Notes under the pieces: generated by a model
What the model saw: the letters and a program-made list of their open reading frames with translations, nothing else
The model's database searches: none
Told to the model about the DNA's origin: nothing
Source of the DNA: a virus
Taxonomy: Duplodnaviria; Caudoviricetes
Strand: one strand, 5' to 3'
Virus record (IMG/VR): IMGVR_UViG_3300013947_000022
Coordinates: 128,001 to 192,000 of that record
Length of the DNA stretch: 64,000 nucleotides
Made by a program: the position numbers and the translations under genes
Part shown: one piece after another, positions 18,232-47,889 of the stretch
Layout: each line of letters begins with the position of its first letter
Position numbering within the stretch: the first letter of the stretch is position 1

Positions 18232-19653
18232 ATGTATGATTATGAAACTATAAGAAAAAATTTTGAAAAAATTAAGTCTAAAGAAATATTAACATATAAA
18301 CAAATGTGCGAAAAAATAGGCGATATTCCATCTACAAATGGCGCTCGAAGAAAACATCAGTTTGAAGAATGGAAAAGATATGTCGATTGGAAGTCTGTCG
18401 GTCGAGGTAATTTTACTAAAATTAAATTGTTTTCAGAAGAAGAAGTTATAGAAAATATTTTTGAAAAATGTATGACTGATAGCCTTAGTTATACTTTAAG
18501 CGCCTTTCTTGTTTTATACGCTTCTTATAGCGATGGAAAAACAAGACTATATACTTCTTATTCTGAATTGGCTAAATCTTTTGGTATGTTTAACGAAGAT
18601 TTTAATACAGCTCGTTTTAATTTACCTGAAACAGAATTTGATTGTGAAACAGAATTGCTTGGTTTAAGAAACGACCGTTATGATGGGCTTGAAGAAATGA
18701 AATTGGCTATCCGTCAAGCAAGAAAAGATAATCCTAAAGGTCTTTCTACTAAAAATCATAAATCAGTTCAAGATTTTTTCTTGCGTTATTCCAGAAATGC
18801 TAACGGTAAAATTGAATCAATTTTAAATAAGTTTAAAAAAGATAAAGTTTTAAATTATTCTGAAACTTATTGCGGTGCTTTTTTTGATGGAAATAATGAA
18901 GATATTCAGGCTCATTTAAAAGATATTTACTTAAGCCCTAAAGATAAATCATATTATTATGATGTTATTTCCAAAAATGAAAAGGACGAAGAAATTAAAA
19001 CAAGAATACTTGTTCCTTACAAAGATAGAGTTTTTGTTGGGGATGAAGAAGCTATTTATTTAACTATTCAAAATAAATATGCTCACGATTTGGGCTACCG
19101 TAACTATGGTGAAGCTTTAAGTTTTGGTAAAGGAAAAGAAATTGATAAGCTTTCTCAAATAGAACTGCGAGAAAAACTTCATTGTTTTTATGTTCGTCCA
19201 GCTTTAAATATCTTATTCTCTCCTAATGGCTTAAGTTATAATAAGGAATACTATCAAAAGAATTTGGAAGAAATGTTTAGTATTCCTATTGTCTTATCTT
19301 CTATTCAAGAAACTAATAAGCAAAATAAATCTACTTTTTTAGATAATATAAAGGAAAGACAAGAAACTGAAACTCCATCTAATAGAAGGAAATTCGGTGA
19401 AGAATGGAGTTCTTTAGCTTGGAAAGAACTACAGCGTGAACAAAATATGTTCTACCTTGTGCAAGATAGACTATCTAAAAGATACCTTGATATTAAAAAT
19501 ACTAAATATTTACCAGAAACAGAAAATTCTTCTCTTCAATCTGTAGTCGATTATGAGGGACAATATAAAGATAGTATCTGGTTGAGCGTATTTGAAAATA
19601 GTATCCGTAAAACAGAAAATTTAACCTCTTGTCATTCTCTTGACATTTTGTGA
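18232..19653 (+). CDS. large hypothetical protein (possibly DNA-binding or replication-related)
   Basis: 473 aa ORF with AAGGAG SD. Confidence 0.7.
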   Translation: MYDYETIRKNFEKIKSKEILTYKQMCEKIGDIPSTNGARRKHQFEEWKRYVDWKSVGRGNFTKIKLFSEEEVIENIFEKCMTDSLSYTLSAFLVLYASYSDGKTRLYTSYSELAKSFGMFNEDFNTARFNLPETEFDCETELLGLRNDRYDGLEEMKLAIRQARKDNPKGLSTKNHKSVQDFFLRYSRNANGKIESILNKFKKDKVLNYSETYCGAFFDGNNEDIQAHLKDIYLSPKDKSYYYDVISKNEKDEEIKTRILVPYKDRVFVGDEEAIYLTIQNKYAHDLGYRNYGEALSFGKGKEIDKLSQIELREKLHCFYVRPALNILFSPNGLSYNKEYYQKNLEEMFSIPIVLSSIQETNKQNKSTFLDNIKERQETETPSNRRKFGEEWSSLAWKELQREQNMFYLVQDRLSKRYLDIKNTKYLPETENSSLQSVVDYEGQYKDSIWLSVFENSIRKTENLTSCHSLDIL

Positions 19654-30352: not shown

Positions 30353-31093
30353 TTAATCTTCTTGCCCCAACATTTCTTCTTGATAGGCATATTCACCGAA
30401 ATATTTTTTCTCTCCCTCTTTTCGTGCGGTGACAGCTTCTCCTTTAGAATTATATAATCCTAAATTATGTACCACTCCTTTAAAAGTAATTTGTGCTTTC
30501 CATTTTCCATTTTTCTTTGGATAAACACCACGAATTTTTTCTCCCTCATAGGGTAAACGATTATAATTATTTTGAGCAAGAGTTACAATTCGCATCTTAG
30601 ACTTTCTGTTGTCTTTTACATCATGAAAAATATGGTCCACCTGCATTTCATCTGGGCAATTCATGATAATTCGATGTAATAAAACAATTTTAGTTTCGTG
30701 TGGTTGTGTTATATCCCTTGCTACAATATAACCATTTTTACTATTATCTTCTCTCCAACAAAATTGTTTTATTTTATCAAAATCTTCCAAATCAAAAAGA
30801 AAAGGGACATTAGTATTTGTTGTATATCCAATTCCATATTCTCCTGTAAGGTCATATACATTTGTTTTTGAATTTGCTTCTATTGTGGTTTGAATGTTAT
30901 AGCAACCACAAGAAGTAGTATGTCCACTTCTTAAATGAGTTCCTGTAACATTTATTAAATTAGGATTGCCACAAGAACATTCACACCACCAAGTAGGTTT
31001 GTGTTGTCCTTTAGGGGTGATATAATCATCACCCCTATATAAAACTTTAAGTCTACCAAAAGTTTTCCCAGTTAAATCAATAAGTTTACCCAT
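30353..31093 (-). CDS. HNH-AP2 homing endonuclease
   Basis: DLTGKTFGRL, CxCxCG, LHRII..VDH..DNRK, AP2 domain. Confidence 0.85.
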   Translation of the reverse strand: MGKLIDLTGKTFGRLKVLYRGDDYITPKGQHKPTWWCECSCGNPNLINVTGTHLRSGHTTSCGCYNIQTTIEANSKTNVYDLTGEYGIGYTTNTNVPFLFDLEDFDKIKQFCWREDNSKNGYIVARDITQPHETKIVLLHRIIMNCPDEMQVDHIFHDVKDNRKSKMRIVTLAQNNYNRLPYEGEKIRGVYPKKNGKWKAQITFKGVVHNLGLYNSKGEAVTARKEGEKKYFGEYAYQEEMLGQED

Positions 31094-31762: not shown

Positions 31763-31977
31763 TTGACAAATGGATTAAGATATACTATAATATCATCATG
31801 GAGAGAGGAATTGGTCTCCTCTCTCCTTTGTAACTCATTTTGTTAGTTACGGTGTTTGATGATGAACACTTGGATTACACTCGTAGTATAATCAACAGAT
31901 ATAACTTGCTACATTGAATCACCTCCTTTCACAATGAGTTTGAGGATAAAGACAGAGTTCAAAGCTCTGTCTTTTTT
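31763..31977 (+). ncRNA. cassette 1 antisense RNA (promoter to terminator)
   Basis: TTGACA-17-TATAAT, 5' hairpin, terminator gacagag/ctctgtc+T6. Confidence 0.6.
31843..31914 (-). CDS. amber-containing micro-peptide 1, M*QVISVDYTTSVIQVFIIKHRN (*=TAG)
   Basis: GAAAGGAGG SD; homologous to peptides 2 and 3. Confidence 0.75.
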
Positions 31978-32072: not shown

Positions 32073-32822
32073 TCAAATATTATATTTTTTAAATAATTCT
32101 TTTTGAGGAGCAAATTCTCCATAATATTCTTTTTCTGCTTTTAGTCGTTTTACAATAGCATCTTCTTTCTTTTTAAATCTTCCTAAATAGGTACGTTTTT
32201 TATTAATTCTTATTGAAACGACCCATTTCCCGTCTTTGGCTTGATATATTCCCGTTATTCCAGAAGTGTTGTTCTTTCTTATTTTTACGTTCATCCCATT
32301 TTCAGAGACGGAAGCAATACGAAGATTAATTTTGCGGTTGTCTAAAGAATTTTGATTTTCGTGGTCGTAAATTGTTTTGTTTTTCTTGTCTTTACCTTTC
32401 ATAATAAAATTGCTCATAGTATAATTAGTATTGTTAATACAAGTACGAAGATAAAGATAGCCATTTGTTCCTTTTTGAACCTCCCAGTAATAATTTTTAA
32501 TTTTATCAAAATCTTCTAAATCAAAAAAGAACTGATAACCTTTATCTGTCCAACCTATCCCGTATTCTTCAGTTGTTAAATCATATTTATTTTTCTTTCT
32601 TTCTTTTTCGGCATTTTTCTTCCCTAATTTTTTAATATTCTCTTTTCTCAAACAACCACAACTATTAATACCCCTACCTAAATTACCATTGCTTACAGAA
32701 ATTAATTCTGGATTACCGCAAGAACAAGAACATAACCAATAAGTTGCATTTTTTTCTTTGCTTCTTTTTTCGTCTTTTGCCTCAATGGTTAAACGTCCAT
32801 AAGTTTCTCCAATTTTCTTCAT
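32073..32822 (-). CDS. HNH-AP2 homing endonuclease
   Basis: CSCSCG, DH..DNRK.NLR, NNTSGITG AP2 domain. Confidence 0.85.
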   Translation of the reverse strand: MKKIGETYGRLTIEAKDEKRSKEKNATYWLCSCSCGNPELISVSNGNLGRGINSCGCLRKENIKKLGKKNAEKERKKNKYDLTTEEYGIGWTDKGYQFFFDLEDFDKIKNYYWEVQKGTNGYLYLRTCINNTNYTMSNFIMKGKDKKNKTIYDHENQNSLDNRKINLRIASVSENGMNVKIRKNNTSGITGIYQAKDGKWVVSIRINKKRTYLGRFKKKEDAIVKRLKAEKEYYGEFAPQKELFKKYNI

Positions 32823-36702: not shown

Positions 36703-37017
36703 TTGACAAAAAGGAAAGAGTATGATATACTATTCACAGTGAGAGGGAAAATCCACATTCCCAATACTATGACATGGAAAGGTAATGACAGACCACAGAG
36801 CGCGATATATCCGCAGCTTCAAATAGTATATCATACTCACTATCTCAACTGTTAATTACGGTGTTGATAGATTCCAATTGCGACTGCATTGAACTAATAG
36901 TCAACGCAGATGATTTTCTTCATTTTATCATCTCCCTTCTTAAAATGAAGTTATATGAAAAGGTGTGTGGACACCTTGTTTATGAGTTTGGAGCAAGTGT
37001 AGGCTTGCTCCTTTCTC
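36703..37017 (+). ncRNA. cassette 2 antisense RNA
   Basis: TTGACA-17-TATACT; loops TCCACA / TGTGGA; terminator ggagcaag/cttgctcc. Confidence 0.6.
36852..36923 (-). CDS. amber-containing micro-peptide 2, MKKIICVDY*FNAVAIGIYQHRN
   Basis: GAAGGGAG SD; family homology. Confidence 0.75.
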
Positions 37018-37489
37018 AATCTCTGGGGTCAGGTGCAACATCAATCCAAAGGCCATCTCCCGCATCAGGGTCATGATGAAGCTCAACATTTTCGACGAGC
37101 AAGGTGTCGGAAAGACTATCCCAATTCCAGAACCCCACCGTATCATAGGCGCAATCACAACCGACAATCCATTCTCCTTTAGATGTATCATAAATTGCAA
37201 TCTGCGTTTCCTTAGAAAGAGTGCGAACAAAATCTCCAATGGAAACATAATGGTCAGAATTGTCTGTCTTGTTATCCTTGCCATAAACATAATCAACAGC
37301 AGCCTGAAGATTATCCATGAAATAGTGACCTTGAGCCCAATACTTACGCTGATGGTCGATGCCCCATGCACCGATATATCGAGGAGTTCCATCATTAGTC
37401 CAGTTGCAAAGCAAGGTACGGTCAAGTTTCTTGTTTTCAGCGATAATCTGATAAGTGATGCCATTGTCATTTCTAAACTCTCTAACCAT
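37016..37489 (-). CDS. hypothetical protein
   Basis: GGAGG SD before ATG 37489. Confidence 0.7.
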   Translation of the reverse strand: MVREFRNDNGITYQIIAENKKLDRTLLCNWTNDGTPRYIGAWGIDHQRKYWAQGHYFMDNLQAAVDYVYGKDNKTDNSDHYVSIGDFVRTLSKETQIAIYDTSKGEWIVGCDCAYDTVGFWNWDSLSDTLLVENVELHHDPDAGDGLWIDVAPDPRD

Positions 37490-37524
37490 TTTAAATACCT
37501 CCAAATATTTTTTGTGAATTTTAC

Positions 37525-37788
37525 TTGACAAATGAAAAGAAATGTGTTATAATCAAATCACAATCTAAAAGAGACCTGCAACCTCAGATAGATTGTGACT
37601 TGTGCAAGAAATTAAATTGGTGGATTAATTCCTATGCTTAATAATAACGACCTAACAGGTGTTATAAGTATAATCAATATGTTTGATTTTACTCATGTAG
37701 AATCACTTCCTTTCTCTCTTAAAGAGGGAATTAAGCTTTGCAGGAGCTTAAACTAAAAGACAGGTAGTTTGTGGGCTACCTGTCTTTT
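37525..37788 (+). ncRNA. cassette 3 antisense RNA
   Basis: TTGACA-17-TATAAT; loops CCTGCAA / TTGCAGG; terminator. Confidence 0.65.
37625..37696 (-). CDS. amber-containing micro-peptide 3, MSKIKHIDYTYNTC*VVIIKHRN
   Basis: GAAAGGAAG SD; TAG aligns with CAA (Gln) of peptide 1. Confidence 0.75.
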
Positions 37789-37795
37789 GCTTTAG

Positions 37796-38668
37796 TTAGT
37801 CCTCAATTCCATATTGAGAAAAGAGATGTTTTTGGGGAGCAAATTCCCCAAAAAGTTCCTTTTCTTTTTGAAGTCGGTCTTTTACAGCATCTTCAAAAGA
37901 ACGCCAAGTTTTTCTGTAAATATATCCATTACAAGCTATTCTGGTACGCCAAGTTAAAGTGCCTGATGGTTTTATTTCTTTGTATACTCCAATAACGCCA
38001 CTTGTATTATTTTTAGCTAAAGACATATTGTAACGATTTTCAGCAGAAGATGCTTCTCTTAAATTATTTTTTCTACAATTGGTTACATCTCTATCTTTGT
38101 GGTCTACAATCTTCCATTTAAAATCTGTTACTAAATGATGAAAAGCAATATTTTCTTGGTCAGCAGACCTAAGATAATTCCCATGTTCAGTAACTCGCCA
38201 TGTATGAGTACAAACTTTTTCATAATCTTCTTTATCAAAATAATATTTTGTGTCGCTATTAATTGGAATAACTGCCATTGTTATATCATCTATTATCTCA
38301 TATTTATTTCCCCTTCTATGATTTTGATGAATACCACAAGTAACAATCAATCCGCTTTTTAAATGAGTGGCTCTTACGCTTGTTTGAACACCGCAAGAAC
38401 ATTGGCAAATCCAATAAACTCTTGTTTTTGTTTTGTCTTGTCTTAAAACAGTTAATTCGCCAAAAGTTTTGCCTGTTAAATCTTCAAATCTGCGAGTAGA
38501 ACAACCACAAGATTTTATATGGCCATTTTTAAGTTCACATCCTCTAACTATTTGCGTGTTACCGCATTGGCATTCGCATTCCCATAATTCAGGAACAGTA
38601 GATGATTGTTTTATAACAGTTAATTTACCATAAACATCTCCAATTTTTATTTCTTTATTATTGTCCAC
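37796..38668 (-). CDS. HNH-AP2 homing endonuclease
   Basis: two CxCxCG repeats, VDHKDR..NLR, NNTSGVIG. Confidence 0.85.
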   Translation of the reverse strand: MDNNKEIKIGDVYGKLTVIKQSSTVPELWECECQCGNTQIVRGCELKNGHIKSCGCSTRRFEDLTGKTFGELTVLRQDKTKTRVYWICQCSCGVQTSVRATHLKSGLIVTCGIHQNHRRGNKYEIIDDITMAVIPINSDTKYYFDKEDYEKVCTHTWRVTEHGNYLRSADQENIAFHHLVTDFKWKIVDHKDRDVTNCRKNNLREASSAENRYNMSLAKNNTSGVIGVYKEIKPSGTLTWRTRIACNGYIYRKTWRSFEDAVKDRLQKEKELFGEFAPQKHLFSQYGIED

Positions 38669-38670
38669 TG

Positions 38671-39153
38671 TTAATCTCCTTGTTTATCAATAAATGAAAT
38701 ATTTGCCAAATTGACAGTAATAGTATCGGGTTTTTCTGATAGCTTGTTAAAATAGGAATTTTGCACATATCCAGTAGAAGCTAAAACATCTTTTTTAATT
38801 GGATTACCATTGAGATAATACTTTACTTTTGAATGATTAGGGGTAGAATGCAAAACCACATAAAATTTTGTTTGCCCCTCTTTGTCTGTATGAGTAAGGA
38901 TTCTATCTGACCCGTCTAAATATTCCCCCCATTTTCTTGCTTGGGGAACATATCCTTGTGCCATTTTGTTTTTAACTGCTTTTGTATTAAGGCGATTAAT
39001 TCCCACTCTAAAAGTTCCATAAGTTTTCTTTGTGACAATGATTCCCTCTTTTTTAGCCTTAGCCGTAAGAGGCACATCAGAAACATATCCCATATTAAAG
39101 AAACGTCCCTTGGCAATACGGTTTAACTTGATAATAGCTTCGTTCTTGTTCAT
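38671..39153 (-). CDS. hypothetical phage protein
   Basis: AAGGAG SD. Confidence 0.7.
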   Translation of the reverse strand: MNKNEAIIKLNRIAKGRFFNMGYVSDVPLTAKAKKEGIIVTKKTYGTFRVGINRLNTKAVKNKMAQGYVPQARKWGEYLDGSDRILTHTDKEGQTKFYVVLHSTPNHSKVKYYLNGNPIKKDVLASTGYVQNSYFNKLSEKPDTITVNLANISFIDKQGD

Positions 39154-39206
39154 GATAATTCTCCTTTAAATTAAAATAGACTTTTTATTTGATAAGTAGG
39201 TGAGGC

Positions 39207-40211
39207 TTACGCCGCCTCGCCCACAATATCATACACGCGATTGAGAAGAGGCATACCATTGATAACAGCGGTAAAGCCCATAGGAGTCTTTGCAGTGCGA
39301 AGCGCGACAGGATGGCTTTCAAAGTCCGCTACGGCTTGCAAAGCACGAATTCCACTATTAGTAAAGTTGTCAAGGTCATTAGCCTTATAGCACTTCATCA
39401 GATAATCAATCTGACAAAGGTTACGAATCTGGATAATGTCCTTATCCTCAGCATGAACAGGGAACAGTTCCTTCGCCATCTCAAAGAACTGATTTTCACT
39501 GAAATTAATCTTTGCATATTCCTCACATTCCTTCTTGAATTCCTCAAGATACTGCTTCTGTCCCATAAGAGTGAGACGTGCCGCCTCAAGCTTATGATTC
39601 ATAGAAGAACTGTGACGAATAGTGATTTCGTTCACCATTCCCTTGCGAGCACGAGCAAGACAGTTGGAACAGAAAATGCGAATGCTGACATAGGAAATGG
39701 AGATTGCCCTACTTCCATCATGGGAGTTTTGGAGCAGGAGATAAGGCTTATAATCATCGCCAAGAATATTCATTCCATCCGTACTCATGGTAATGATGTT
39801 CTTAGCTCCATTGGTTCCATAACTTCCTGCGGTTTCAAAGTGAGCACCTTCTTCCACGAGAGAGTCGAGGAAGTCAAAGGCATCCTCGTTATTCAGAATC
39901 TCATAGTTGGGAGAAACAATGCCAAGGGACTGCATGGTATCAGTACGAACCGTTGCAACCTTATCCTTGATTGCATAAGGAGTCTGAATCATAATTTGCT
40001 TATCTCCCATCATCTGAACAACAGGCTGAGTAAACTGCAAGGGGAACTTCTCAACCTTGTAATTGAGTCCAGAAAGTTCGAGAGCCTGAGCAAGATTGCC
40101 AGCAGAGGTGATGTCCTTACCTACACCATCAGTGAAAACAGTACGCTGAACATTATCAAAACGAGAGGCGATAGGAGCAACTTTCTCACTATTGAACTGA
40201 AGAATACCCAT
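39207..40211 (-). CDS. DUF932 / TIGR03299 phage-plasmid protein
   Basis: LGIVS..Y..L.N..AF.F, FETAG, NSHDGS, RIFCSN motifs. Confidence 0.8.
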   Translation of the reverse strand: MGILQFNSEKVAPIASRFDNVQRTVFTDGVGKDITSAGNLAQALELSGLNYKVEKFPLQFTQPVVQMMGDKQIMIQTPYAIKDKVATVRTDTMQSLGIVSPNYEILNNEDAFDFLDSLVEEGAHFETAGSYGTNGAKNIITMSTDGMNILGDDYKPYLLLQNSHDGSRAISISYVSIRIFCSNCLARARKGMVNEITIRHSSSMNHKLEAARLTLMGQKQYLEEFKKECEEYAKINFSENQFFEMAKELFPVHAEDKDIIQIRNLCQIDYLMKCYKANDLDNFTNSGIRALQAVADFESHPVALRTAKTPMGFTAVINGMPLLNRVYDIVGEAA

Positions 40212-40262
40212 AATATTTCCTTTCTGCGTTTAAGCTCGCCAGCTTTTTGTTTTTGTTGAGAT

Positions 40263-40292
40263 AATTATATCACAGAATCTTGGATTTGTCAA
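40263..40292 (-). promoter_or_regulatory. sigma-A promoter for the DUF932 gene
   Basis: TTGACA-17-TATAAT with TG on - strand. Confidence 0.7.
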
Positions 40293-40576
40293 GGACTTTA
40301 GATAAAATAATCTAAAACCTTTTTTAAAGAATAAGAGGAGATATACTCCCCTTTATCTTTTAGGCAGAATATTTCCAAAGAAGCGCAAAGAGTTCATCAA
40401 CGAGCTTTCGAGCCTTAGCCTTGTCTTCATTTGGCATAGAAGTATCAGACTTTAAATCTCTCTTGAGAATATTAAGAGCATCAAGGTAACTGAGTTCGGT
40501 AATGTCGAGATTATCAATTTTCATGGTTTATTTCTCCTTTTAATAAAATAATTTGTGACTTATGGTAAGGGTGGAA

Positions 40577-41107
40577 TTACCACCCATATACCTTCTTAAT
40601 ATACGGAGCAAGGGAACGAGTATATCTCGTAATGTCTTGCTTCGTAGCTGTGCCATTATGCACTTTCCATAGGAAATTATCCGCTTGGTCAGAGCTGATA
40701 GTAGGCTTAAGTTCTCTAAACGTGCCGAAAATACTTCCATCATGATGCGTCTGGTCGCATCTAAAATCGTACCTATCCACATAGAAGTCAGCGTATTCAC
40801 AATCCTTGAAGAACTTAAGACATTCTCCAATATTGTGACCGTAGAGCTTGTAGCCCCTTCTCCGACCATTCCAAAGTCCGATGTCTGCAAGACAGACAAT
40901 TCGACCTTCTGTGTTGATATTGAGATTCACACGCTCATCATCGAGATAATCGAAATTGAGTTCGTACATTTCTTCCGTGAGAGTGTTGTCATCAACATCG
41001 ACAGGGAGGTTATTAAGCTCCCTGTTTTCAAGCAATCCCTCCTTCCAATCCTTAAGATTGAGTTCGTAGTTCTGCCAAATGTGACGAATAGGTTCTCTGC
41101 TTTTCAT
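40577..41107 (-). CDS. hypothetical phage protein
   Basis: GGAGG SD; GLWNGR and HHDG motifs. Confidence 0.7.
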   Translation of the reverse strand: MKSREPIRHIWQNYELNLKDWKEGLLENRELNNLPVDVDDNTLTEEMYELNFDYLDDERVNLNINTEGRIVCLADIGLWNGRRRGYKLYGHNIGECLKFFKDCEYADFYVDRYDFRCDQTHHDGSIFGTFRELKPTISSDQADNFLWKVHNGTATKQDITRYTRSLAPYIKKVYGW

Positions 41108-41185
41108 TGTTCATACCTCCAAAATTTTATTTGAGTTTATTTTAAATCATCTAAGATGATTTGTCAATAGGTTTTTAAGCTTATT

Positions 41186-41380
41186 TTAATGGACATTGCA
41201 GAAGAAATCTTCTTCTACAAAGGTTACACCATCATAGTGTTCAAAGATGATTTCATCAGGAATCTCTTCGGGGGTACTAAATGTACCCTCGTTAATATCC
41301 TGAGTTTCATCTTGGTAAAAGAAATTGGACTTGAGCTCATTAAGCTCATCGCGAGTTAAATCCTGAACCATTTTAATCAT
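41186..41380 (-). CDS. small acidic hypothetical protein
   Basis: AAGGAGG SD. Confidence 0.65.
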   Translation of the reverse strand: MIKMVQDLTRDELNELKSNFFYQDETQDINEGTFSTPEEIPDEIIFEHYDGVTFVEEDFFCNVH

Positions 41381-41685
41381 TATTTATTCCTCCTTAACAT
41401 TCAGTCTTCTCAATGGTCATATCAAAATGTTCCTGACCGCGCTCTTCAGCTTCATCAATCTTTTCGTTGATATACTGAAAAAATTCTTCACGGGATTCGC
41501 AGAAGATGGCAGTACTGTCTTCTTCACCGAGACAAAAAGATAAAATTTTGTTTTTAGTCATAATAATTTCCTTTCTTTTTTTAAAAAAGTTCTTGACAAG
41601 TGGTTATTGATGTGTTACAATACCTACAGAGTCAAGAGACCCGTAACCTCTCAACTCTGTAGGATATTAATTTTGATTTCTTCTC

Positions 41686-41766
41686 TTATAGCTCAAGGAA
41701 ACCAGTAAGCACTATTACATAGTAATAAATGCCAAATTTGTAATCAACAAACTTAGTTTTCTACAT
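41686..41766 (-). CDS. amber-containing micro-peptide 4, M*KTKFVDYKFGIYYYVIVLTGFLEL
   Basis: GAAAGGAG SD; family homology. Confidence 0.8.
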
Positions 41767-41908
41767 GGCTTTCATCTCCTTTCCTCCTTAGACAAGGGTT
41801 TCATTTATATGAACAGCTTACGGGGCTGGAGTTTTTATGGTGGAGAGATGAAACTTGAAGCCCGTACTTCCTTGCTTCATCTCTCGTGACGCATTCTAAT
41901 TTCTTAGA

Positions 41909-41989
41909 TTACAGCTCTAAGAAACCAGTTAGTACTATTACAAAGTAATAGATATTATGCGTATAATCAAGCTATCTTAGCTTACGCAT
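41909..41989 (-). CDS. amber-containing micro-peptide 5, MRKLR*LDYTHNIYYFVIVLTGFLEL
   Basis: GAAAGGAG SD; synonymous changes relative to peptide 4. Confidence 0.8.
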
Positions 41990-42319
41990 CAACAACCACT
42001 CCTTTCTGATTGTTGTATCTATGTGAACAGTTACGGGACTGAGTTTCACAAAGATTAGGAACAGGTTTAGCCCTGTTCCTTTCTTTTTCTCCTTTTTTAA
42101 TACATATAATACTCATCGTCATGATGAATATAACGTTCAGTCAAATCCTTCAAAGGTTGACTGATTTTCTTGGGCTTCTCTTTAAGGCGTGAATCTTTAA
42201 AGGCTCGATTTGTATAGTATCGGAATTTTCCATGTCCCTTTACCATCTTATTGTGACGCTGGGCTTGAAAAACTTCATGTTCATTCATTCCCATTTGTTT
42301 CACCTCCTTTAGTTTGTTA

Positions 42320-42643
42320 TTAATAATGATATCTGCCCCTTTGGGGATTTTCTTCCTTCCTTTTGCAATCAAACACCTTACTAATGTTGTAAGCCCAGAT
42401 AGAATCACCGAGACTTGTATCAATACAAGGTTGAACACGAATCGGGAAATGGATTGAAGCACAATAATCTTCAATCCGCTTAAGTTGGAATTTGCGAAAA
42501 ACGGTGATTGTATCACCTTTGAGCAGAGCTTTAATATCTGCCTGCTCAAGAGTATCAATCAAAAGATTGAGCTTGCTGTTGCTATCAATGTTATTGATAG
42601 CCTCGTTCATATAGCGTGTAGTCATGTTTGTCATAGCAGACAT
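42320..42643 (-). CDS. hypothetical protein
   Basis: GGAGG SD. Confidence 0.65.
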   Translation of the reverse strand: MSAMTNMTTRYMNEAINNIDSNSKLNLLIDTLEQADIKALLKGDTITVFRKFQLKRIEDYCASIHFPIRVQPCIDTSLGDSIWAYNISKVFDCKRKEENPQRGRYHY

Positions 42644-42874
42644 TTTACTTAGCCTCCTTTTTAATTTTACCCATAACTTTCATTTCGTCCTCATCAAATT
42701 GGGAACAGATTTTCAACTCTTTTTGATACCAGAGCTGTTGGCATTTCTTACATTGGACAATGTCATTCTGCATTACCACAAACTTGTGGGAAATGCAATG
42801 TGGATTGGGGCAAAAAGCTGTGAATTTCATTTCCGATTTCTCCTTATTATTCTCAAGTTTTTTGTAAATTCTTC

Positions 42875-43126
42875 TTGACAAGCTAAATAAACTATGTTAT
42901 AATCTTCAACGGTTAAAGAGATGAGCGAATGAAACTCAGAGCTCTTTAACTGAGATTGGGTTAAGTTGTGGCGAACTTGTTAGACCTCAATCTTACCACC
43001 GAGGATATGTGACACCACGGTGACATTGAAGAAATAGTTTATTGACTAAATCTTACGCATTTGGAAGTCCTCCTTTCTTATGTGATAAGAACAATCAGAC
43101 AAGCACAAATGAGTGCTTGTCTTTTT
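42875..43126 (+). ncRNA. cassette 6 antisense RNA
   Basis: TTGACA-17-TATAAT, 5' hairpin, terminator agacaagcac/gtgcttgtct+T. Confidence 0.6.
42980..43060 (-). CDS. amber-containing micro-peptide 6, MRKI*SINYFFNVTVVSHILGGKIEV
   Basis: GAAAGGAGG SD; family homology. Confidence 0.75.
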
Positions 43127-43343
43127 GTTTAGAAATAATACTTAAAGTAACAGTCAACAGGTTTGACTGTCACTTTAGCCGAAGAATCCAAACCCATCTT
43201 GGTTGTTTTAATAACATAACCAAATCTGGCGTAAGCATCTTTTATGCTTCTTGCTACTACGTCGCCTTCATATAGCTTGGATTGACCTCCAAGCTGTGCA
43301 ATGTAGGCTTTAACATGGTATTTAGATTTGCGCTGAATAGGCA

Positions 43344-43529
43344 TTATTCCACCTCCTTTTCTTTGTAATGAGCGCATTGGTCAACCTTGAAGTAAACTCC
43401 ATGATTGTACCAATATTCTACTCTTTTTGTATTGAACTGTTTATGGTAAAGGCAAATCTCTTTGTTTCCACAAGTAACGCAGAGATTAGTGTTCTTCTTA
43501 AGATACTCCTGCTTTTCTTTGAGCGTCAT
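43344..43529 (-). CDS. small Cys-rich protein
   Basis: AAGGAG SD. Confidence 0.55.
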   Translation of the reverse strand: MTLKEKQEYLKKNTNLCVTCGNKEICLYHKQFNTKRVEYWYNHGVYFKVDQCAHYKEKEVE

Positions 43530-43574
43530 TTTCTTTCTCTCCTTTTCATTTTTATTTTTATTGTTAAATTTCTC

Positions 43575-43878
43575 TTGACAAATATTAAGAGTTATGCTAT
43601 AATTCTCTCAAAGAGTAAAGAAATCCCGTATTCTTTCAATACTCTTTGAGGCTATTAGTTTGTAGGGACAGTTTACTTTATATTTCATTTATCAGACTTC
43701 CATGAAGCCAGTCAAAACTACGACGTAATAGTAAACATTGAATTTGTAATCAAGCTACTTCATTTTTCGCATATATTATTTCACTCCTTTCTTTTCTCAA
43801 GACGGAGAGGTTGTCCTGCGATACGGGAAGGACTATGTGAAAAAGATTGAGCAACGGGCAGGTTGCTCTTTCTTTTTT
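43575..43878 (+). ncRNA. cassette 7 antisense RNA
   Basis: TTGACA-17-TATAAT; loops CCCGTAT / ATACGGG; terminator. Confidence 0.65.
43692..43772 (-). CDS. amber-containing micro-peptide 7, MRKMK*LDYKFNVYYYVVVLTGFMEV
   Basis: GAAAGGAG SD; family homology. Confidence 0.8.
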
Positions 43879-43888
43879 GATTTTTACT

Positions 43889-44215
43889 TTATTCCGTGGT
43901 AATGACCCATTCTTCTCCATTCCCATCAATAATATGAACCACTTCGTTATTGATAGTAACAGATTCTAAATTGCAGAGCCAAGACTCTACAATCTCAGTG
44001 TGGTTTGTCATTGAAGCTTCTTCAGCTTCATGTAAGCCGTCCTCAAAACCTACGTTATAAGAGCCAGTTAAATCTTCCTCAGAGTAGAGAGTGGTGTCCT
44101 TGATGGCATAGGACTTTTCGCCCATGTCCCATCCAAGATAGAACATGAAGATACTGCAAAGGGTTGTAACCAAAGCAACGATAAGACCGATATTTTCCTT
44201 GACCTGATTTTTCAT
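43889..44215 (-). CDS. membrane-anchored hypothetical protein
   Basis: N-terminal TM segment. Confidence 0.65.
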   Translation of the reverse strand: MKNQVKENIGLIVALVTTLCSIFMFYLGWDMGEKSYAIKDTTLYSEEDLTGSYNVGFEDGLHEAEEASMTNHTEIVESWLCNLESVTINNEVVHIIDGNGEEWVITTE

Positions 44216-44248
44216 TTTTCATAACCTCCGAATATTTGTAAATAATAC

Positions 44249-44549
44249 TTGACAAACGCTAAATGTTATGGTATAATTCTCTCAAGAAGTGAGGAATCCC
44301 GTATTATTCTCTCACTCCTTGAGGCTATTGGTTTGTAGGAATTGGCTTCAATGAATTAGAGCTCCATGAAGCCACAGCTTACTATTGTAAAATAGTAAAC
44401 ATTGAATTTGTAGTCAAGCTACTTTAGATTCTTCATTGAATCACCTTCCTTTCTTCCTCTAACTGAGGGATTGTCGCACTATACGGGAGCGACTTTTTTA
44501 GAATGGAAAAGATTGAACGACTCGTTGCGGGAGTCGTTCTTTCTTTTTT
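44249..44549 (+). ncRNA. cassette 8 antisense RNA
   Basis: TTGACA-17-TATAAT; loops CCCGTAT / ATACGGG; terminator. Confidence 0.65.
44356..44436 (-). CDS. amber-containing micro-peptide 8, MKNLK*LDYKFNVYYFTIVSCGFMEL
   Basis: GAAAGGAAGG SD; family homology. Confidence 0.8.
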
Positions 44550-45423
44550 ATTTGCCTTCAATGACTTTCTCAACAAAGAGCCCCATACAACCTTCGGGAT
44601 GCTTTGTGGAAACATCTTTGAATTCCTTTCGCTGTGCGTCGATAAAATCAGTTGAAGTGTCATATTGCTCAAGAGCTTTAACAAGCTTAATTGTTTTAAG
44701 CATATCGTTTCCATAACGCTTATAAGCCTGATACCCAATGTTGAGACTGGCTTCCACGAAAGCTTTACTATCGTGGTCAGCCCAGCCACTCAAATCAATG
44801 AGCGCGAGTGCATAATTAACGCCTTCATCTCCGAACTCATCGTGAATCTGAAGAAGCTTTCTGGGAGCGGTGATATTACGAAGACTGCCCTTCTTACCTC
44901 CAACTGTGACATTGTATTTGTCACAAATTTTCAGAATAGAAACAGCAGGCTCAAGATTTAATTTTCGAGCACAGTTAAACATATCTGCGGGGGAAACTCT
45001 GGTTACGCCATCATTCTGGTGCATGAATAAATAAGCTTCTTCTTCAACGGTTAATCCATCAAAGAGCCTGCACCAAGCCCATTTATATCCTTTTGCATTA
45101 AGAGATTCAATGGTATGATGCCCATCCCAGCATTCAAGATACCCATCACGGAAATTGAGAGATTTAACTTCACTCCGCTTATAGTCAAAATTGCGGAGAA
45201 TGGACAAATAAGAATGCTTAAGGTCTCTCTGTCCTTCAAAAAGATTGATAAGATTGAGAGGAACTTTTACCATCGTCCAAGGACGGGAAGGATTCTCACG
45301 AATCTCTTTGAGCGCGGGAATCAGAACCGTCTTAGCCCATGTGGAGTTCATATCCACCTTGATACGTTCAACGCCGAGAGTGTTCTTGCTGTTGATGCTG
45401 TTCATGTTGACCTTCTTCTTCAT
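44548..45423 (-). CDS. ParB/Srx-like N-terminal domain protein (DUF6551-like)
   Basis: QR..., WDGHHT, EEAYLF..QN motifs. Confidence 0.6.
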   Translation of the reverse strand: MKKKVNMNSINSKNTLGVERIKVDMNSTWAKTVLIPALKEIRENPSRPWTMVKVPLNLINLFEGQRDLKHSYLSILRNFDYKRSEVKSLNFRDGYLECWDGHHTIESLNAKGYKWAWCRLFDGLTVEEEAYLFMHQNDGVTRVSPADMFNCARKLNLEPAVSILKICDKYNVTVGGKKGSLRNITAPRKLLQIHDEFGDEGVNYALALIDLSGWADHDSKAFVEASLNIGYQAYKRYGNDMLKTIKLVKALEQYDTSTDFIDAQRKEFKDVSTKHPEGCMGLFVEKVIEGK

Positions 45424-45487
45424 AATCCTGTGTCCTTTCTGGTGTTATAGACTTTTCCTTGTCTAAATAAAATATTTAGAGTACAAA

Positions 45488-45542
45488 TAAGCACTCTATG
45501 GAGGGACAGAACTATCAAGCTCTGTCCCTCTAACAATGCTTA
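45488..45542 (-). repeat. conserved stem/internal-loop motif, copy 1
   Basis: + strand TAAGCACTCTAT-[hairpin]-TAACAATGCTTA. Confidence 0.75.
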
Positions 45543-45743
45543 TTAGAACCGCATCACTTCGGTGCGGTAAATCTTGCCAGTCTTAGACTGATTATAGCGC
45601 TTAACTGCGCCATAGTTAATGGACTGAGCAATTTCTTTGGGCTTACTCTCTTCATTGTAATGACAAGTCTTACAAGACTTGCCATTACAAATCCCCATCT
45701 CAACCAGAGATTTGCATTTCTTGGTCATAATATTAGAATCCAT
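45543..45743 (-). CDS. small Cys-rich protein
   Basis: AAGGAG SD. Confidence 0.6.
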   Translation of the reverse strand: MDSNIMTKKCKSLVEMGICNGKSCKTCHYNEESKPKEIAQSINYGAVKRYNQSKTGKIYRTEVMRF

Positions 45744-45804
45744 ACTGTTCTCCTTTCGGCTTATAGCCTTATAAAATTGTTTACAGGAACTTTATATAAA
45801 ACAC

Positions 45805-46012
45805 TTGACAAATATAGCCAAGTGTGTTATAATCAGAGACAGTTAAGAAAGATGCTGTCACATCAATCTTAACTGCTCTTGTGGATTTATATCAGATTAT
45901 TACCAGATAACCTCCGATAATAATACCGAATGCCACTATGTTGTACTAACGTACAACGTCGATAGTAATGCGCATATTACTACCTCCTTTCTGAGTGCTG
46001 ATTTGACTTGCT
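45805..46012 (+). ncRNA. cassette 9 antisense RNA (3' end uncertain)
   Basis: TTGACA-17-TATAAT, 5' hairpin with loop CTGTCA. Confidence 0.5.
45892..45975 (-). CDS. amber-containing micro-peptide 9, MRITIDVVR*YNIVAFGIIIGGYLVII
   Basis: GAAAGGAGG SD; same architecture. Confidence 0.7.
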
Positions 46013-46068
46013 TAAGCACTCTATAGAACGTCAGAAGTTATCTCCTTCTGACGCTCTAACAACGCTCA
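46013..46068 (-). repeat. conserved stem/internal-loop motif, copy 2
   Basis: + strand TAAGCACTCTAT-[hairpin]-TAACAACGCT. Confidence 0.75.
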
Positions 46069-46125
46069 ATCGAGCAATATCAAAGAGATATGTTTGACCA
46101 GTTCATACCTCTTTGACATGGATGA

Positions 46126-46281
46126 TTAGTCTAAGTCTAACTTAGTTACATCAATCTGGAAGAATTCAATTAGCGAATCAACACTCATGTGTTGCGTATA
46201 CCAATTAAATTCAAACTCAGAAGTGATATTCTATAATAGAATAGCATCAATCTTCATTTTGTTCATAAGACTGTCTTCCAT
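46126..46281 (-). CDS. 51-aa hypothetical protein with TAG=Gln at codon 17
   Basis: GAAAGGAGG SD; single in-frame TAG. Confidence 0.55.
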
Positions 46282-46371
46282 GAATTCCTCCTTTCTTGTA
46301 ACAAGCTAAGTGGGGTTAGCTGTTATTAATATCCTAATTGGTCACTTTAGGATGGAGTCTTAGCTACGAAC

Positions 46372-46426
46372 TAAGCACTCTATTAAGCCCACCATCAATT
46401 ATGATGATGGGCTTTAACAATGCTTA
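46372..46426 (-). repeat. conserved stem/internal-loop motif, copy 3
   Basis: + strand TAAGCACTCTAT-[hairpin]-TAACAATGCTTA. Confidence 0.75.
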
Positions 46427-47008
46427 CACGCAATGCAATGTATTATAATAATAATACATTGTACGGTCAAATTCTCTTATAACGGTTTTTAACTCGTTTG
46501 AGTCCTTTAGAAGAGCAATTAACTTACCCTTCACTCTGTCAAGGCGATACATATCATTGCTCTTAACAGCGTAGTAACCATCTACGTGGATGAGTTTGTT
46601 GACCTTGTTACGCATCTCCGTATTCACTTTTTTTAATTCCTTTCGCTCCTTTCTCAAGGGAGACTTTAAAATTTATTATTGCCGAGACTTGTGGAATAGG
46701 ACTCATTTGTTTATACTCGTTGAATCCTTTAGAGACGAGTTGAAGAGTTAGATGTGGCGAATGTACCACATAAAGCTCTTCTTGCCTCCTGTGAGGCGAT
46801 AGATAAGGTACATTGCCATTACAGCAACGATACCAAGAGAAAAGATGATACTGAAAACGATAGAGATAAACATGAGAGCGAACATTTTACTGTTCTCCTT
46901 TCTGGTGTGAAGATTCTGTGTTGGTTTCCCATCATCAGTGCCGTAGTAACCAGCTACGACAGACAGAGAGAGATTTTACCCTCTCTCCCTGTTTCGGGAT
47001 TTAGTATA

Positions 47009-47230
47009 TCAGAACTTGATATACTCCACGAACAGCTCGGTTGCGAGTGAAGAATAAATGTTGCTGTCAAGGACAACAACCTTATCTTCACCCCAGTACA
47101 GAGCGAGAATCTTATTGGTACGCTTGATAGCGTAACCCTTGTTGTCCTCGACAATGCCGAGGTCAATCTTGGCGTTGGTAGCGTTGGTGTCCTCGATGGC
47201 ATTGAGGATGTTCTTTTCAAGTTTGGTCAT
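47009..47230 (-). CDS. hypothetical protein
   Basis: GAAAGGA SD before ATG 47230. Confidence 0.6.
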   Translation of the reverse strand: MTKLEKNILNAIEDTNATNAKIDLGIVEDNKGYAIKRTNKILALYWGEDKVVVLDSNIYSSLATELFVEYIKF

Positions 47231-47299
47231 GACTGATTTCCTTTCTGGTTTTAACGTCTTGTAACCTGACGATGATAAGAAATATTTATTATAAAACAC

Positions 47300-47525
47300 T
47301 TGACAAATAACCTATCAAGTGATATAATACAAACATAGAGAAGAAACCTATATTTCTTCTCTATGAGGAGATTCAAGGATTTTAGAGAATCCAAGAACCA
47401 TCAAGAATAATGCTATAGCTGATTACACCATTATTCTTATCTATAGATTTTACAATCTACATTGTAAATCCTCCCTTCTTCGAGGATAAAAGTCAATATG
47501 AATTATAGGCTTCATAATGACTATT
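47300..47525 (+). ncRNA. cassette 10 antisense RNA (may extend through downstream hairpins)
   Basis: TTGACA-17-TATAAT; loops CCTATA / TATAGG. Confidence 0.6.
47382..47462 (-). CDS. amber-containing micro-peptide 10, M*IVKSIDKNNGVISYSIILDGSWIL
   Basis: GAAGGGAGG SD; same architecture. Confidence 0.7.
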
Positions 47526-47889
47526 GAGGAATTTCTGTTTCTCTCGTTTTGCCTGAGAAACAGAAATTCATTCTCCTTTATTCCGAATTAGCTGGAAATT
47601 TAATTCGGAATAAAGGAATATATGAAGCAAAAGAGATGAATGATTTGTTTTTGAGCTTGTCATTCATTTCTTTGACTTTGCTGAAGATAGAAACAAGTGA
47701 AATTACATTACCGTAATTCGCTTTTTTGTATTTCTACTACATATGACATGAAAGTAAAGGGAGAAATAAAAATTTTTAAAAAATTTTTTAAAAACAAAAA
47801 AATAAAAAAGACAGAGCCTTCTAATCGAAGCTCTGTCTAAATTTATATCTAAAACTTTATCCTTTGTCTCTTATCCTTTAATCTTTTAC

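What the first reader, a model, noticed from the sequence alone, without database searches (positions are those of the whole stretch)
36745..47509. Covarying kissing-loop pair brackets the micro-ORFs
Seen: the loops of the hairpins on either side of the ORF are exact complements and change together. TCCACA(36752)/TGTGGA(36966); CCTGCAA(37575)/TTGCAGG(37738); CCCGTAA(41640)/TTACGGG(41818); CCCGTA(41861)/TACGGG(42032); CCCGTAT(43625)/ATACGGG(43821); CCCGTAT(44298)/ATACGGG(44481); CCTATA(47347)/TATAGG(47504). Cassette 1 instead closes with a direct stem (aactcat..tgt 31832 / acaatgagtt 31931). Cassettes 6 and 9 show no match or only a partial one. Several A.C mismatches in the promoter-proximal hairpin become G.U pairs on the - strand, favouring folding in the peptide mRNA, while the terminators favour the + strand. 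Inference: a long-range loop-loop pseudoknot loops out the SD and ORF, and a ribosome passing the amber codon could remodel it.
Basis: seen in the sequence. Interest (0 to 1): 0.85.

Follow-up and report, generated by a model that had tools for sequence, protein, structure and literature searches.

The report
Covarying kissing loops bracket phage micro-ORFs
In a 215-kb gut phage and its sister phages, two hairpins on either side of each of about ten tiny peptide genes carry loops that are exact complements and mutate together, which points to a selected long-range RNA contact closing each mini-gene; nothing like it is catalogued, and its purpose is still inferred.

Summary
All seven loop pairs sit at the stated coordinates and are perfect complements. 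Cassette 1 belongs to the same class rather than being an exception. I found about 50 more cassettes in sister jumbo phages, giving at least ten different loop pairs. Cognate loops share a mean of 6.6 complementary bases against 4.0 for non-cognate ones. The six core pairs are 100% Watson-Crick, changes are two-sided only, and slid controls pair 19-43%.

The minus-strand micro-ORFs are genuinely coding across their TAG (pN/pS about 0.27). TAG is read as Gln in this phage through a tRNA(CUA). The promoter-proximal hairpin carries G.U pairs in the minus sense, the terminators in the plus sense, so both strands probably make RNA.

My best reading (about 50%) is a convergent antisense/small-peptide module resembling type I toxin-antitoxin loci, in which a loop-loop contact closes the peptide mRNA, analogous to hok tac/fbi end pairing. 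The strand that forms the contact, the mechanism, and any remodelling by ribosomes remain untested. No Rfam or Pfam match was found. Earlier first-reader notes of this scan flagged the same cassettes.

The parts
31763..31791 (+). Cassette A: consensus sigma-70-type promoter facing against the minus-strand genes
   Evidence: 12/12 hexamer match
31830..31850 (.). Cassette A: small hairpin whose loop holds L1 (31832-31839). The micro-ORF stop codon (31843-31845) lies in the same loop.
   Evidence: sequence; orthologues
31843..31914 (-). Cassette A micro-ORF, 23 codons, TAG at codon 2
31933..31940 (.). Cassette A: L2, complementary to L1, in a loop closed by CCTC/GAGG (31922-31945). In the minus sense that GAGG is the SD.
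31948..31974 (+). Cassette A + strand intrinsic terminator
36703..36731 (+). Cassette B promoter
   Evidence: 11/12 match with TG extension
36745..36762 (.). Cassette B HP1; L1 TCCACA at 36752-36757
36852..36923 (-). Cassette B micro-ORF, TAG at codon 10
36960..36977 (.). Cassette B HP2; L2 TGTGGA at 36966-36971
36990..37011 (+). Cassette B + terminator hairpin, followed by a T-rich run
   Evidence: sequence, fold
37525..37553 (+). Cassette C promoter
37558..37598 (.). Cassette C HP1 (10-bp outer and 3-bp inner stem); L1 CCTGCAA at 37575-37581
37625..37696 (-). Cassette C micro-ORF, TAG at codon 15
37731..37751 (.). Cassette C HP2; L2 TTGCAGG at 37738-37744 (the whole 7-nt loop)
37754..37789 (+). 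Cassette C + terminator
41593..41621 (+). Cassette D1 promoter (serves the D1-D2 tandem)
41623..41663 (.). Cassette D1 HP1; L1 CCCGTAA at 41640-41646. The stem starts 2 nt after the -10 box.
41686..41775 (-). Cassette D1 micro-ORF (ATG at 41775 or 41766), TAG at codon 5 or 2
41814..41828 (.). Cassette D1 HP2; L2 TTACGGG at 41818-41824. Also scored as a weak + terminator.
41843..41885 (.). Cassette D2 HP1 (no promoter of its own); L1 CCCGTA at 41861-41866
41909..41989 (-). Cassette D2 micro-ORF, TAG at codon 6
42028..42041 (.). Cassette D2 HP2; L2 TACGGG at 42032-42037 (the whole 6-nt loop)
42057..42080 (+). Cassette D2 + terminator (a T-poor tail also scored on the minus strand)
42875..43122 (.). 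Cassette E: promoter 42875-42903, HP1 42910-42952, micro-ORF 42983-43060 (-), terminator 43097-43122. No HP2 and no loop pair.
43575..43603 (+). Cassette F promoter
43607..43650 (.). Cassette F HP1; L1 TCCCGTAT at 43624-43631
43692..43772 (-). Cassette F micro-ORF, TAG at codon 6
   Evidence: sequence
43813..43833 (.). Cassette F HP2; L2 ATACGGGA at 43821-43828
43849..43868 (+). Cassette F + terminator
44249..44277 (+). Cassette G promoter
44281..44323 (.). Cassette G HP1; L1 TCCCGTAT at 44297-44304. One A.C in the plus sense becomes G.U in the minus sense.
44356..44436 (-). Cassette G micro-ORF, TAG at codon 6
44473..44493 (.). Cassette G HP2; L2 ATACGGGA at 44481-44488
44515..44539 (+). Cassette G + terminator
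45805..45975 (.). Cassette H: promoter 45805-45833, 5' hairpin 45840-45875, micro-ORF 45892-45975 (-). No loop pair; the 3' side uses a different repeated module.
47300..47328 (+). Cassette I promoter
47334..47365 (.). Cassette I HP1 (13 bp); L1 CCTATA at 47347-47352 (the whole loop)
47382..47462 (-). Cassette I micro-ORF, TAG at codon 2
47498..47515 (.). Cassette I HP2; L2 TATAGG at 47504-47509
47529..47569 (+). Cassette I terminal 15-bp hairpin with a weak T-run
   Evidence: sequence, fold

Best explanation
Each cassette is a convergent sense/antisense module.

The minus strand carries a strong SD and a 22-28-codon peptide gene, which becomes fully translatable once the phage's tRNA(CUA) reads its TAG. 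The plus strand carries a consensus host-type promoter and a terminator. Together these would give a 185-280-nt RNA antisense to the whole micro-ORF.

Two hairpins flank the ORF. In mRNA sense they are HP2', about 30-55 nt upstream of the AUG, and HP1', downstream of the stop codon. They display 6-8-nt loops that pair with each other as a kissing complex.

I propose the contact forms mainly within the peptide mRNA and closes the SD-ORF domain into a compact, stable, inert state. That state would hide the two loops an antisense RNA would use for first contact. This is a loop-loop counterpart of the 5'-3' fold-back closure of type I toxin mRNAs.

What is shown: the complementarity and covariation, coding selection on the peptide, minus-sense optimisation of HP1, plus-sense terminators, and the presence of a tRNA(CUA).

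What is inferred: that both RNAs are made, that the contact is intramolecular and in the mRNA, that closure represses translation or antisense binding, and that the peptides are harmful or late-acting.
For: - Loop-loop covariation. At least ten Watson-Crick loop classes occur across about 60 cassettes, the core pairs are 100% paired, and changes are two-sided only.
- Loop display. In pseudoknot-free ensembles the loop motifs are mostly unpaired: 0.72 and 0.85 in the minus sense, against 0.39 for the whole RNA.
- Conserved geometry. L1 lies 12-15 nt after the predicted + start and L2 lies 38-54 nt beyond the AUG.
- The peptide is real and is read through TAG. Differences by codon position are 169:121:308, and pooled pN/pS is about 0.27, with conservation on both sides of TAG. 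A tRNA with a CUA anticodon is present, split by a group I intron here and intact in two sister phages.
- HP1 folds as minus-sense RNA. G.U counts are 35 against 6 with a background of 161:97. Mean stability is -19.0 against -15.9 kcal/mol. Lower-stem pairs covary within 2-4 nt of the -10 box, upstream of the likely + start.
- Plus-strand promoters are full consensus (17 matches against 0.45 expected in the window), and promoters and terminators are kept in the sister phages.
- Precedent. The hok full-length mRNA is closed by tac/fbi, which blocks translation and antisense binding (PMC9841398). In AapA1/IsoA1, a 5'-3' long-distance interaction is combined with two kissing loops that set cognate specificity (PMC5416894).
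Against: - No expression data were available. No consensus minus-strand promoter precedes the micro-ORFs, so the mRNA may exist only as read-through of partly bidirectional terminators.
- The predicted SD accessibility of the micro-ORFs does not differ from that of 23 ordinary genes (not significant).
- The kissing helix has no G.U or A.C, so it gives no strand information. That pattern also fits a constraint acting on both strands.
- Four of the ten window cassettes share the CCCGTA core, so the loops are not unique addresses.
- The peptides match no toxin family, and their toxicity is untested.
- Two of ten window cassettes and about a fifth of all cassettes lack the pair.
Confidence: 0.5

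Rival explanations
1. The kissing contact forms within the plus-strand antisense RNA, between its 5'-terminal hairpin and the hairpin just before its terminator. It would compact and stabilise the RNA, or tune termination. The mRNA would carry the same complementarity only as a mirror image. A dual version, in which both RNAs self-close, belongs here too.
For: The consensus promoter and + terminator define a discrete RNA whose two end hairpins carry the loops. 5'-terminal hairpins are classic stabilisers in Firmicutes (my own knowledge). The strict Watson-Crick pairing of the helix fits a constraint on both strands. L1 is 0.83 unpaired in plus-sense ensembles.
Against: The HP1 stem has A.C mismatches in the plus sense that are G.U in the minus sense. 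Its lower stem reaches to 2-4 nt after the -10 box, so part of it is probably not in the plus RNA. L2 is less well displayed in the plus sense (0.56). Self-closure would compete with target binding.
Confidence: 0.25
2. The loops pair between molecules.
For: Covariation cannot tell intra- from intermolecular pairing. Four window cassettes share the CCCGTA core, and D1-D2 are co-transcribed.
Against: There are ten copies per genome, each antisense to a coding micro-ORF, in an accessory-gene block. No Rfam family was matched. The two loops sit 100-215 nt apart in one RNA, which makes the intramolecular contact kinetically favoured.
Confidence: 0.07
3. The complementarity is a DNA-level feature. 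It could be short inverted repeats used by a recombinase or other DNA-binding protein, or the residue of an inverted duplication that made HP2 from HP1.
For: The cassettes are modular and recombine. One sister cassette keeps the 5' part of the H type in front of a different unit. Homing endonuclease genes lie beside A and C.
Against: The stems of HP1 and HP2 are unrelated in sequence, so HP2 is not an inverted copy of HP1. The repeats are only 6-8 bp and always sit at hairpin tips. No cassette was seen inverted between them in any sister phage. Two-sided changes with unrelated flanks indicate selection for pairing.
Confidence: 0.05
4. The pattern arises by chance or by shared descent only.
For: Many cassettes are orthologues, so counts are not independent. 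6-nt matches occur in 7% of non-cognate loop pairs.
Against: At least ten different loop classes are all complementary. Orthologues differ by a clean double change. 0 of 500 shuffles reach the observed score, and slid controls pair 19-43%.
Confidence: 0.03

Closest known systems
hok/sok family: tac/fbi 5'-3' fold-back of the toxin mRNA (PMC9841398 and the Gerdes-lab papers cited there)
   Same: A short covarying long-range pairing between sequences on either side of a small ORF closes the mRNA. In hok the closed form blocks both translation and antisense binding. An antisense RNA from a strong promoter is part of the locus.
   Different: In hok the pairing is an ordinary helix between the transcript ends, coupled to SD sequestration and 3' processing. 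Here it is a loop-loop contact between two hairpins. There is no sequence or Rfam similarity, no own sigma-70-type promoter for the mRNA, and SD sequestration is not shown.
AapA1/IsoA1 of Helicobacter pylori (PMC5416894)
   Same: Multi-copy small-peptide/antisense modules. Two apical loops mediate kissing and differ between paralogues. A 5'-3' long-distance interaction keeps the full-length mRNA inert.
   Different: There the kissing is between mRNA and antitoxin, and the closure is a separate helix. Here the two loops of one RNA are complementary to each other, which sense/antisense recognition does not require.
Ibs/Sib repeats of E. coli (my own knowledge; reviewed by Fozo 2012, cited in PMC9841398)
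   Same: Several paralogous copies per genome. The antisense RNA covers the whole 18-19-codon ORF including its SD.
   Different: No self-complementary loop pair is described, there is no in-frame amber codon, and the setting is chromosomal rather than a phage.
bsrG/SR4 and other type I modules of the SPbeta prophage (PMC3834814)
   Same: A Firmicute phage setting with convergent small-peptide/antisense units and loop-loop initiation of pairing. This phage shares at least a homing-endonuclease-like protein with SPbeta-like phages.
   Different: The overlap is at the 3' ends only, the peptides are unrelated, and no ORF-bracketing loop pair is known.
phi29 pRNA intermolecular loop pairing (my own knowledge)
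   Same: Two loops of one phage RNA are complementary and covary between related phages.
   Different: pRNA is a single non-coding packaging RNA with 4-nt loops that forms rings on the connector. Here there are ten copies antisense to coding ORFs, and no Rfam match was found.
Long-distance kissing loops between the 3' CITE and 5' UTR in plant RNA viruses (my own knowledge)
   Same: 5-8-nt covarying hairpin loops on either side of an ORF join the two ends of an mRNA.
   Different: That system is a eukaryotic cap-independent translation enhancer spanning kilobases. The role here is unknown and more probably repressive.

Membership tests
Type I toxin-antitoxin system | Small, usually hydrophobic, toxic peptide | tested here: inconclusive
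   The peptides are 22-28 aa with a hydrophobic, beta-branched core and are under purifying selection. No Pfam toxin family matched. Toxicity was not tested.
Type I toxin-antitoxin system | Antisense RNA with its own promoter that base-pairs with the peptide mRNA | tested here: met
   Met at sequence level only. Consensus + promoters and + terminators enclose the whole micro-ORF and are kept in sister phages. No RNA data were available.
Type I toxin-antitoxin system | Toxin mRNA transcribed from its own promoter | tested here: not met
   No sigma-70-type consensus was found on the minus strand within or just upstream of the cassettes. Promoters of the phage's own polymerase are unknown, so this is weak negative evidence.
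Type I toxin-antitoxin system | mRNA fold that keeps the SD or mRNA inactive | tested here: inconclusive
   Long-range closure is supported. Predicted SD accessibility does not differ from that of ordinary genes.
hok-type mRNA end pairing (tac/fbi) | Covarying pairing between regions 5' and 3' of the ORF | tested here: met
hok-type mRNA end pairing (tac/fbi) | Homology to hok/sok RNAs | tested here: not met
   No Rfam hit at gathering score, or at E of 1 or below, for any toxin or antitoxin family.
hok-type mRNA end pairing (tac/fbi) | Activation by 3' processing | not testable with these tools
   Needs RNA end mapping.
RNA kissing-loop complex | Both partners lie in apical loops of stable hairpins | tested here: met
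   The exception is window cassette A, where L2 lies in a 16-nt loop closed by 4 bp.
RNA kissing-loop complex | Five to eight contiguous Watson-Crick pairs between the loops | tested here: met
   Run lengths are 6-9 nt, with one of 13.
RNA kissing-loop complex | Physical formation of the contact | not testable with these tools
   Needs structure probing and compensatory mutants.
phi29-type packaging RNA | Match to the pRNA model; single copy near packaging genes | tested here: not met
   No Rfam hit was found. There are ten copies in a block of small accessory genes.
Stop-codon-recoded (TAG to Gln) phage | Phage-borne tRNA with a CUA anticodon | tested here: met
   tRNA halves flank a group I intron-like element (34.8 bits, E 5.6e-7, below the gathering score) in this genome. 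An intact copy with anticodon CUA occurs in two sister phages.

The most novel reading that the evidence does not exclude
The cassettes could be a previously undescribed phage timing device with three stacked locks on a small late peptide. The first lock is an antisense RNA made by the host polymerase. The second is an amber codon that needs the phage's own tRNA(CUA). The third is a self-closing kissing-loop mRNA whose two recognition loops are hidden from the antisense RNA until something opens them. On this reading, the loop pair would be a new way for an mRNA to switch between antisense-resistant/inert and antisense-sensitive/translatable states.

A more exotic variant is that the suppressor tRNA itself competes for the D-class loop. 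This looks unlikely: the 11-nt identity in this genome is not kept in sister phages.
Probability: 0.2. Interest if true: 0.85.

Novelty: new variant of a known kind. Interest (0 to 1): 0.7.

Why it matters
If the contact is real in vivo, it is a clean natural example of a covarying long-range kissing-loop pseudoknot closing a bacterial-type mRNA. It recurs in about ten paralogues per genome with different loop codes, which makes it a ready-made set of orthogonal RNA switches.

It also links three layers of phage gene timing in one small module: antisense transcription, stop-codon recoding and RNA tertiary structure. That bears on the open question of what stop-codon recoding regulates in gut phages (bioRxiv 10.1101/2021.08.26.457843).

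The peptides themselves are a conserved family of unknown function, confined so far to one clade of uncultured jumbo phages.

Tried and rejected
- Rfam at gathering score over the whole window gave 0 hits. At E of 1 or below over 31.7-47.7 kb it gave only four sub-threshold, unrelated hits.
- blastn of 41.5-46.1 kb against GenBank phages gave no match.
- RNA-seq: no RNA holder was listed.
- A region-level longest-complement matrix (40 x 50 nt) did not separate cognate from non-cognate pairs. Only loop-restricted statistics do.
- MAFFT on whole cassettes put the 5' loops out of register. I therefore used two flush-cut subgroup alignments.
- SD sequestration: mean unpaired probability is 0.51 for micro-ORF SDs against 0.35 for 23 ordinary genes, which is not significant. 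The idea is not supported.
- Relaxed ARAGORN thresholds in search of a suppressor tRNA gave only noise.
- Pfam on the ten peptides read with TAG=Q gave no family.
- Suppressor-tRNA sensing by the D-class loop. An 11-nt identity to the tRNA's variable/T-stem region exists in this genome. However, every loop has 9-12-nt chance matches elsewhere in the genome. In two sister phages the T stem changed while the D1 loops did not. I rejected this as probably chance.
- Strand information from pairs flanking the kissing helix: 6 G.U against 4 A.C, which is uninformative.
- Reading the conserved Asp-Tyr codons as a minus-strand -35 box fits only the D/F/G cassettes, not A-C, so I dropped it.

Full report
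**Setting.** The window is bases 128,001-192,000 of a single 215,374-bp virus contig of about 34% G+C. Between about 28.7 and 53 kb the genes run on the minus strand. This block contains nine full-consensus sigma-70-type promoters that point the other way, on the plus strand. The whole window has 17 matches against 0.45 expected. Each promoter opens a "cassette", with this layout:
- promoter;
- a hairpin near the RNA start (HP1);
- a body that is antisense to a minus-strand micro-ORF with a very strong SD;
- a second hairpin (HP2);
- a plus-strand intrinsic terminator.

There are ten micro-ORFs, A to I, with D1 and D2 in tandem behind one promoter. All ten lie in this block and nowhere else in the genome.

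**The observation.** Each motif sits in the apical loop of a hairpin. In several cassettes (C, D1, D2) the second loop consists entirely of the complementary bases, as in classic 6-7-nt kissing complexes.
- Cassette A is not a separate solution. Its 5' partner lies in the loop of a small hairpin (31830-31850). In two sister phages the orthologous cassette has a clean second hairpin whose 8-nt loop is complementary to it.
- Cassettes E and H truly lack the pair. E has no HP2 before its terminator. H carries another repeated 3' module.

**Relatives.** Proteins flanking the cassettes retrieved five sister contigs at roughly 80% nucleotide identity. These held 22 further cassettes. A pattern built on the SD/ATG-TAG start then found 40 loci in about 18 contigs of 108-221 kb, nearly all from a few metagenomes. 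Three of the 40 were chance hits.

The loop pairs fall into at least ten classes:
- TCCACA, CCCACA, CCTGCAA, CCCGTAA, CCCGTA, TCCCGTAT, CCTATA/TCCTATA, CCTGTAA and CCTACA;
- a 12-nt version of the CCTACA class;
- the A-type CTCATTCG.

Each class has its exact complement in the other hairpin, while the stems of the two hairpins are unrelated to each other. Orthologous B cassettes differ by a clean double change: T-A in the window and C-G in the sisters.

**Statistics.** Loops were defined by folding each flank alone.
- Cognate loop pairs share on average 6.6 complementary bases, against 4.0 for 888 non-cognate pairs of other classes. 25 of 32 cognate pairs reach 6 nt or more, against 62 of 888 non-cognate pairs.
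- On two alignments cut flush at the conserved CC...GG anchor, the six core pairs are standard pairs in every sequence. Five of 7 and 2 of 6 pairs show changes on both sides, and no core pair shows a one-sided change. The covariation score is reached in 0 of 500 shuffles. Sliding the partner by 1-3 columns drops pairing to 19-43%.
- Two caveats apply. The flush cut used loop positions found through their complementarity, and many sequences are orthologues. The number of distinct classes is therefore the more honest count.

**Geometry.** The layout is conserved.
- L1 lies 12-15 nt after the predicted plus-strand start.
- L2 lies 38-54 nt beyond the AUG.
- The two loops are 100-215 nt apart.
- The stop codon lies 11-53 nt before the base of HP1' in most cassettes (89 nt in window cassette B).

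**Which strand?** The micro-ORFs are truly coding.
- Among orthologues and paralogues, differences fall 169:121:308 on codon positions 1:2:3.
- Pooled pN/pS is about 0.27.
- Conservation extends to both sides of the in-frame TAG.
- Arg is kept through a switch between CGT and AGG/AGA codons.

I checked this in part. A group I intron-like element (E 5.6e-7, below the gathering score) lies between tRNA-like halves in this genome. Two sister phages carry the same tRNA intact with anticodon CUA. The amber codon therefore gates translation on the presence of that tRNA and is not a special stop.

HP1 is optimised for the minus sense.
- Its non-Watson-Crick pairs are G.U in the minus sense 35 times against 6, with a background of 161:97.
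- It is on average 3 kcal/mol more stable in that sense.
- Its covarying lower stem reaches to 2-4 nt after the -10 box, probably upstream of the plus-strand start.

The terminators show the opposite bias (8 against 22) and have their T-runs on the plus strand. Both strands thus appear to make functional RNA. The kissing helix itself never contains G.U or A.C, nor do its flanks help. It therefore carries no strand information.

**Mechanism.** Sense and antisense loops are complementary by construction. The extra constraint that L1 pairs with L2 creates only self-pairing.

I favour self-closure of the peptide mRNA (about 50%). HP2' upstream of the SD would kiss HP1' downstream of the stop codon. 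This would give a compact RNA in which the two loops an antisense RNA would use for first contact are occupied. It parallels the hok full-length mRNA, whose tac/fbi fold-back prevents both translation and antisense binding (PMC9841398). It also parallels AapA1, where a 5'-3' long-distance interaction and two kissing loops coexist (PMC5416894).

Combined with early antisense transcription by the host polymerase and the amber gate, this would delay synthesis of small, possibly membrane-active peptides. That fits the proposal that recoding times late and lytic functions (bioRxiv 10.1101/2021.08.26.457843). These steps are inference.

Several findings count against the model:
- there is no minus-strand sigma-70-type promoter for the micro-ORFs;
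- no excess SD sequestration is predicted;
- the peptides match no toxin family;
- four cassettes share a loop core, so the loops are not unique addresses;
- about a fifth of cassettes lack the pair.

The rival explanations are closure of the antisense RNA or of both RNAs (0.25), intermolecular pairing (0.07), a DNA-level repeat (0.05) and chance (0.03).

**Novelty.** No Rfam family, no Pfam family and no GenBank phage matches. I found no description of such cassettes in the literature searches. I file the finding as a new variant of a known kind: long-range closure of an antisense-controlled small-ORF mRNA, achieved here through a covarying kissing-loop pair.

Noticed in passing
window 46920-46999 (-): Sub-threshold match to Hammerhead_II (RF02276): 30.3 bits against a gathering score of 37, E 0.0098, full model length.
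   Followed up: no
window, + strand just 5' of HP2 in D1, D2 and in sister cassettes (e.g. 41804-41813, 42018-42027): A conserved motif ending in AACAG precedes HP2, and HP2 stems start CAG and end CTG in most classes. In the minus sense this is CTGTT followed by an AT-rich, -10-like stretch. It could be a processing site, a protein site or a phage-polymerase promoter.
   Followed up: partly
window 44356-44436 versus L002 and L004 orthologues: In cassette G the promoter, HP1, HP2 and terminator are nearly identical between phages, while the micro-ORF has diverged to about 50% amino-acid identity (pN/pS 0.63-0.65). The RNA flanks evolve more slowly than the peptide.
   Followed up: partly
L004 (reverse-complement coordinates 18913-19230): One sister cassette keeps the promoter, 5' hairpin and last codons of the H type, followed by a complete unit of another type with a 12-nt loop pair. 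The cassettes recombine as modules.
   Followed up: partly
window 36762-36852: Window cassette B has about 60 extra bases between HP1 and the ORF stop compared with its orthologues (94 against 33 nt), and its HP1 lower stem is degraded.
   Followed up: no
window micro-ORF 3' ends, e.g. 41675-41701 and 44343-44372: The last codons and stop codon of most micro-ORFs lie in a further hairpin. Its non-Watson-Crick pairs are G.U in the minus sense 21 against 9.
   Followed up: partly
window 42057-42080, 43097-43122, 43849-43868, 44515-44539: The + terminators are also scored on the minus strand, with a conserved tail (AATCTTT). They may stop or pause minus-strand transcription ahead of each micro-ORF.
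   Followed up: no
G000:C1:111745-112040 (L047:45-340); L048, L049: A tRNA(CUA) gene is interrupted in the anticodon loop by a group I intron-like element, and is intact in two sister phages with a compensatory change in the T stem. An 11-nt stretch of it equals the D1 HP1' loop in this genome only.
   Followed up: partly
window 45488-45545, 46013-46060, 46372-46430: Three copies of another conserved element, consisting of fixed flanks around a variable hairpin. One copy forms the 3' side of cassette H, and the same element follows several sister cassettes.
   Followed up: no
window 30353-31093, 32073-32822, 37796-38668 (-): Three paralogous HNH/AP2-like homing-endonuclease genes, two of them directly beside cassettes A and C.
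   Followed up: no
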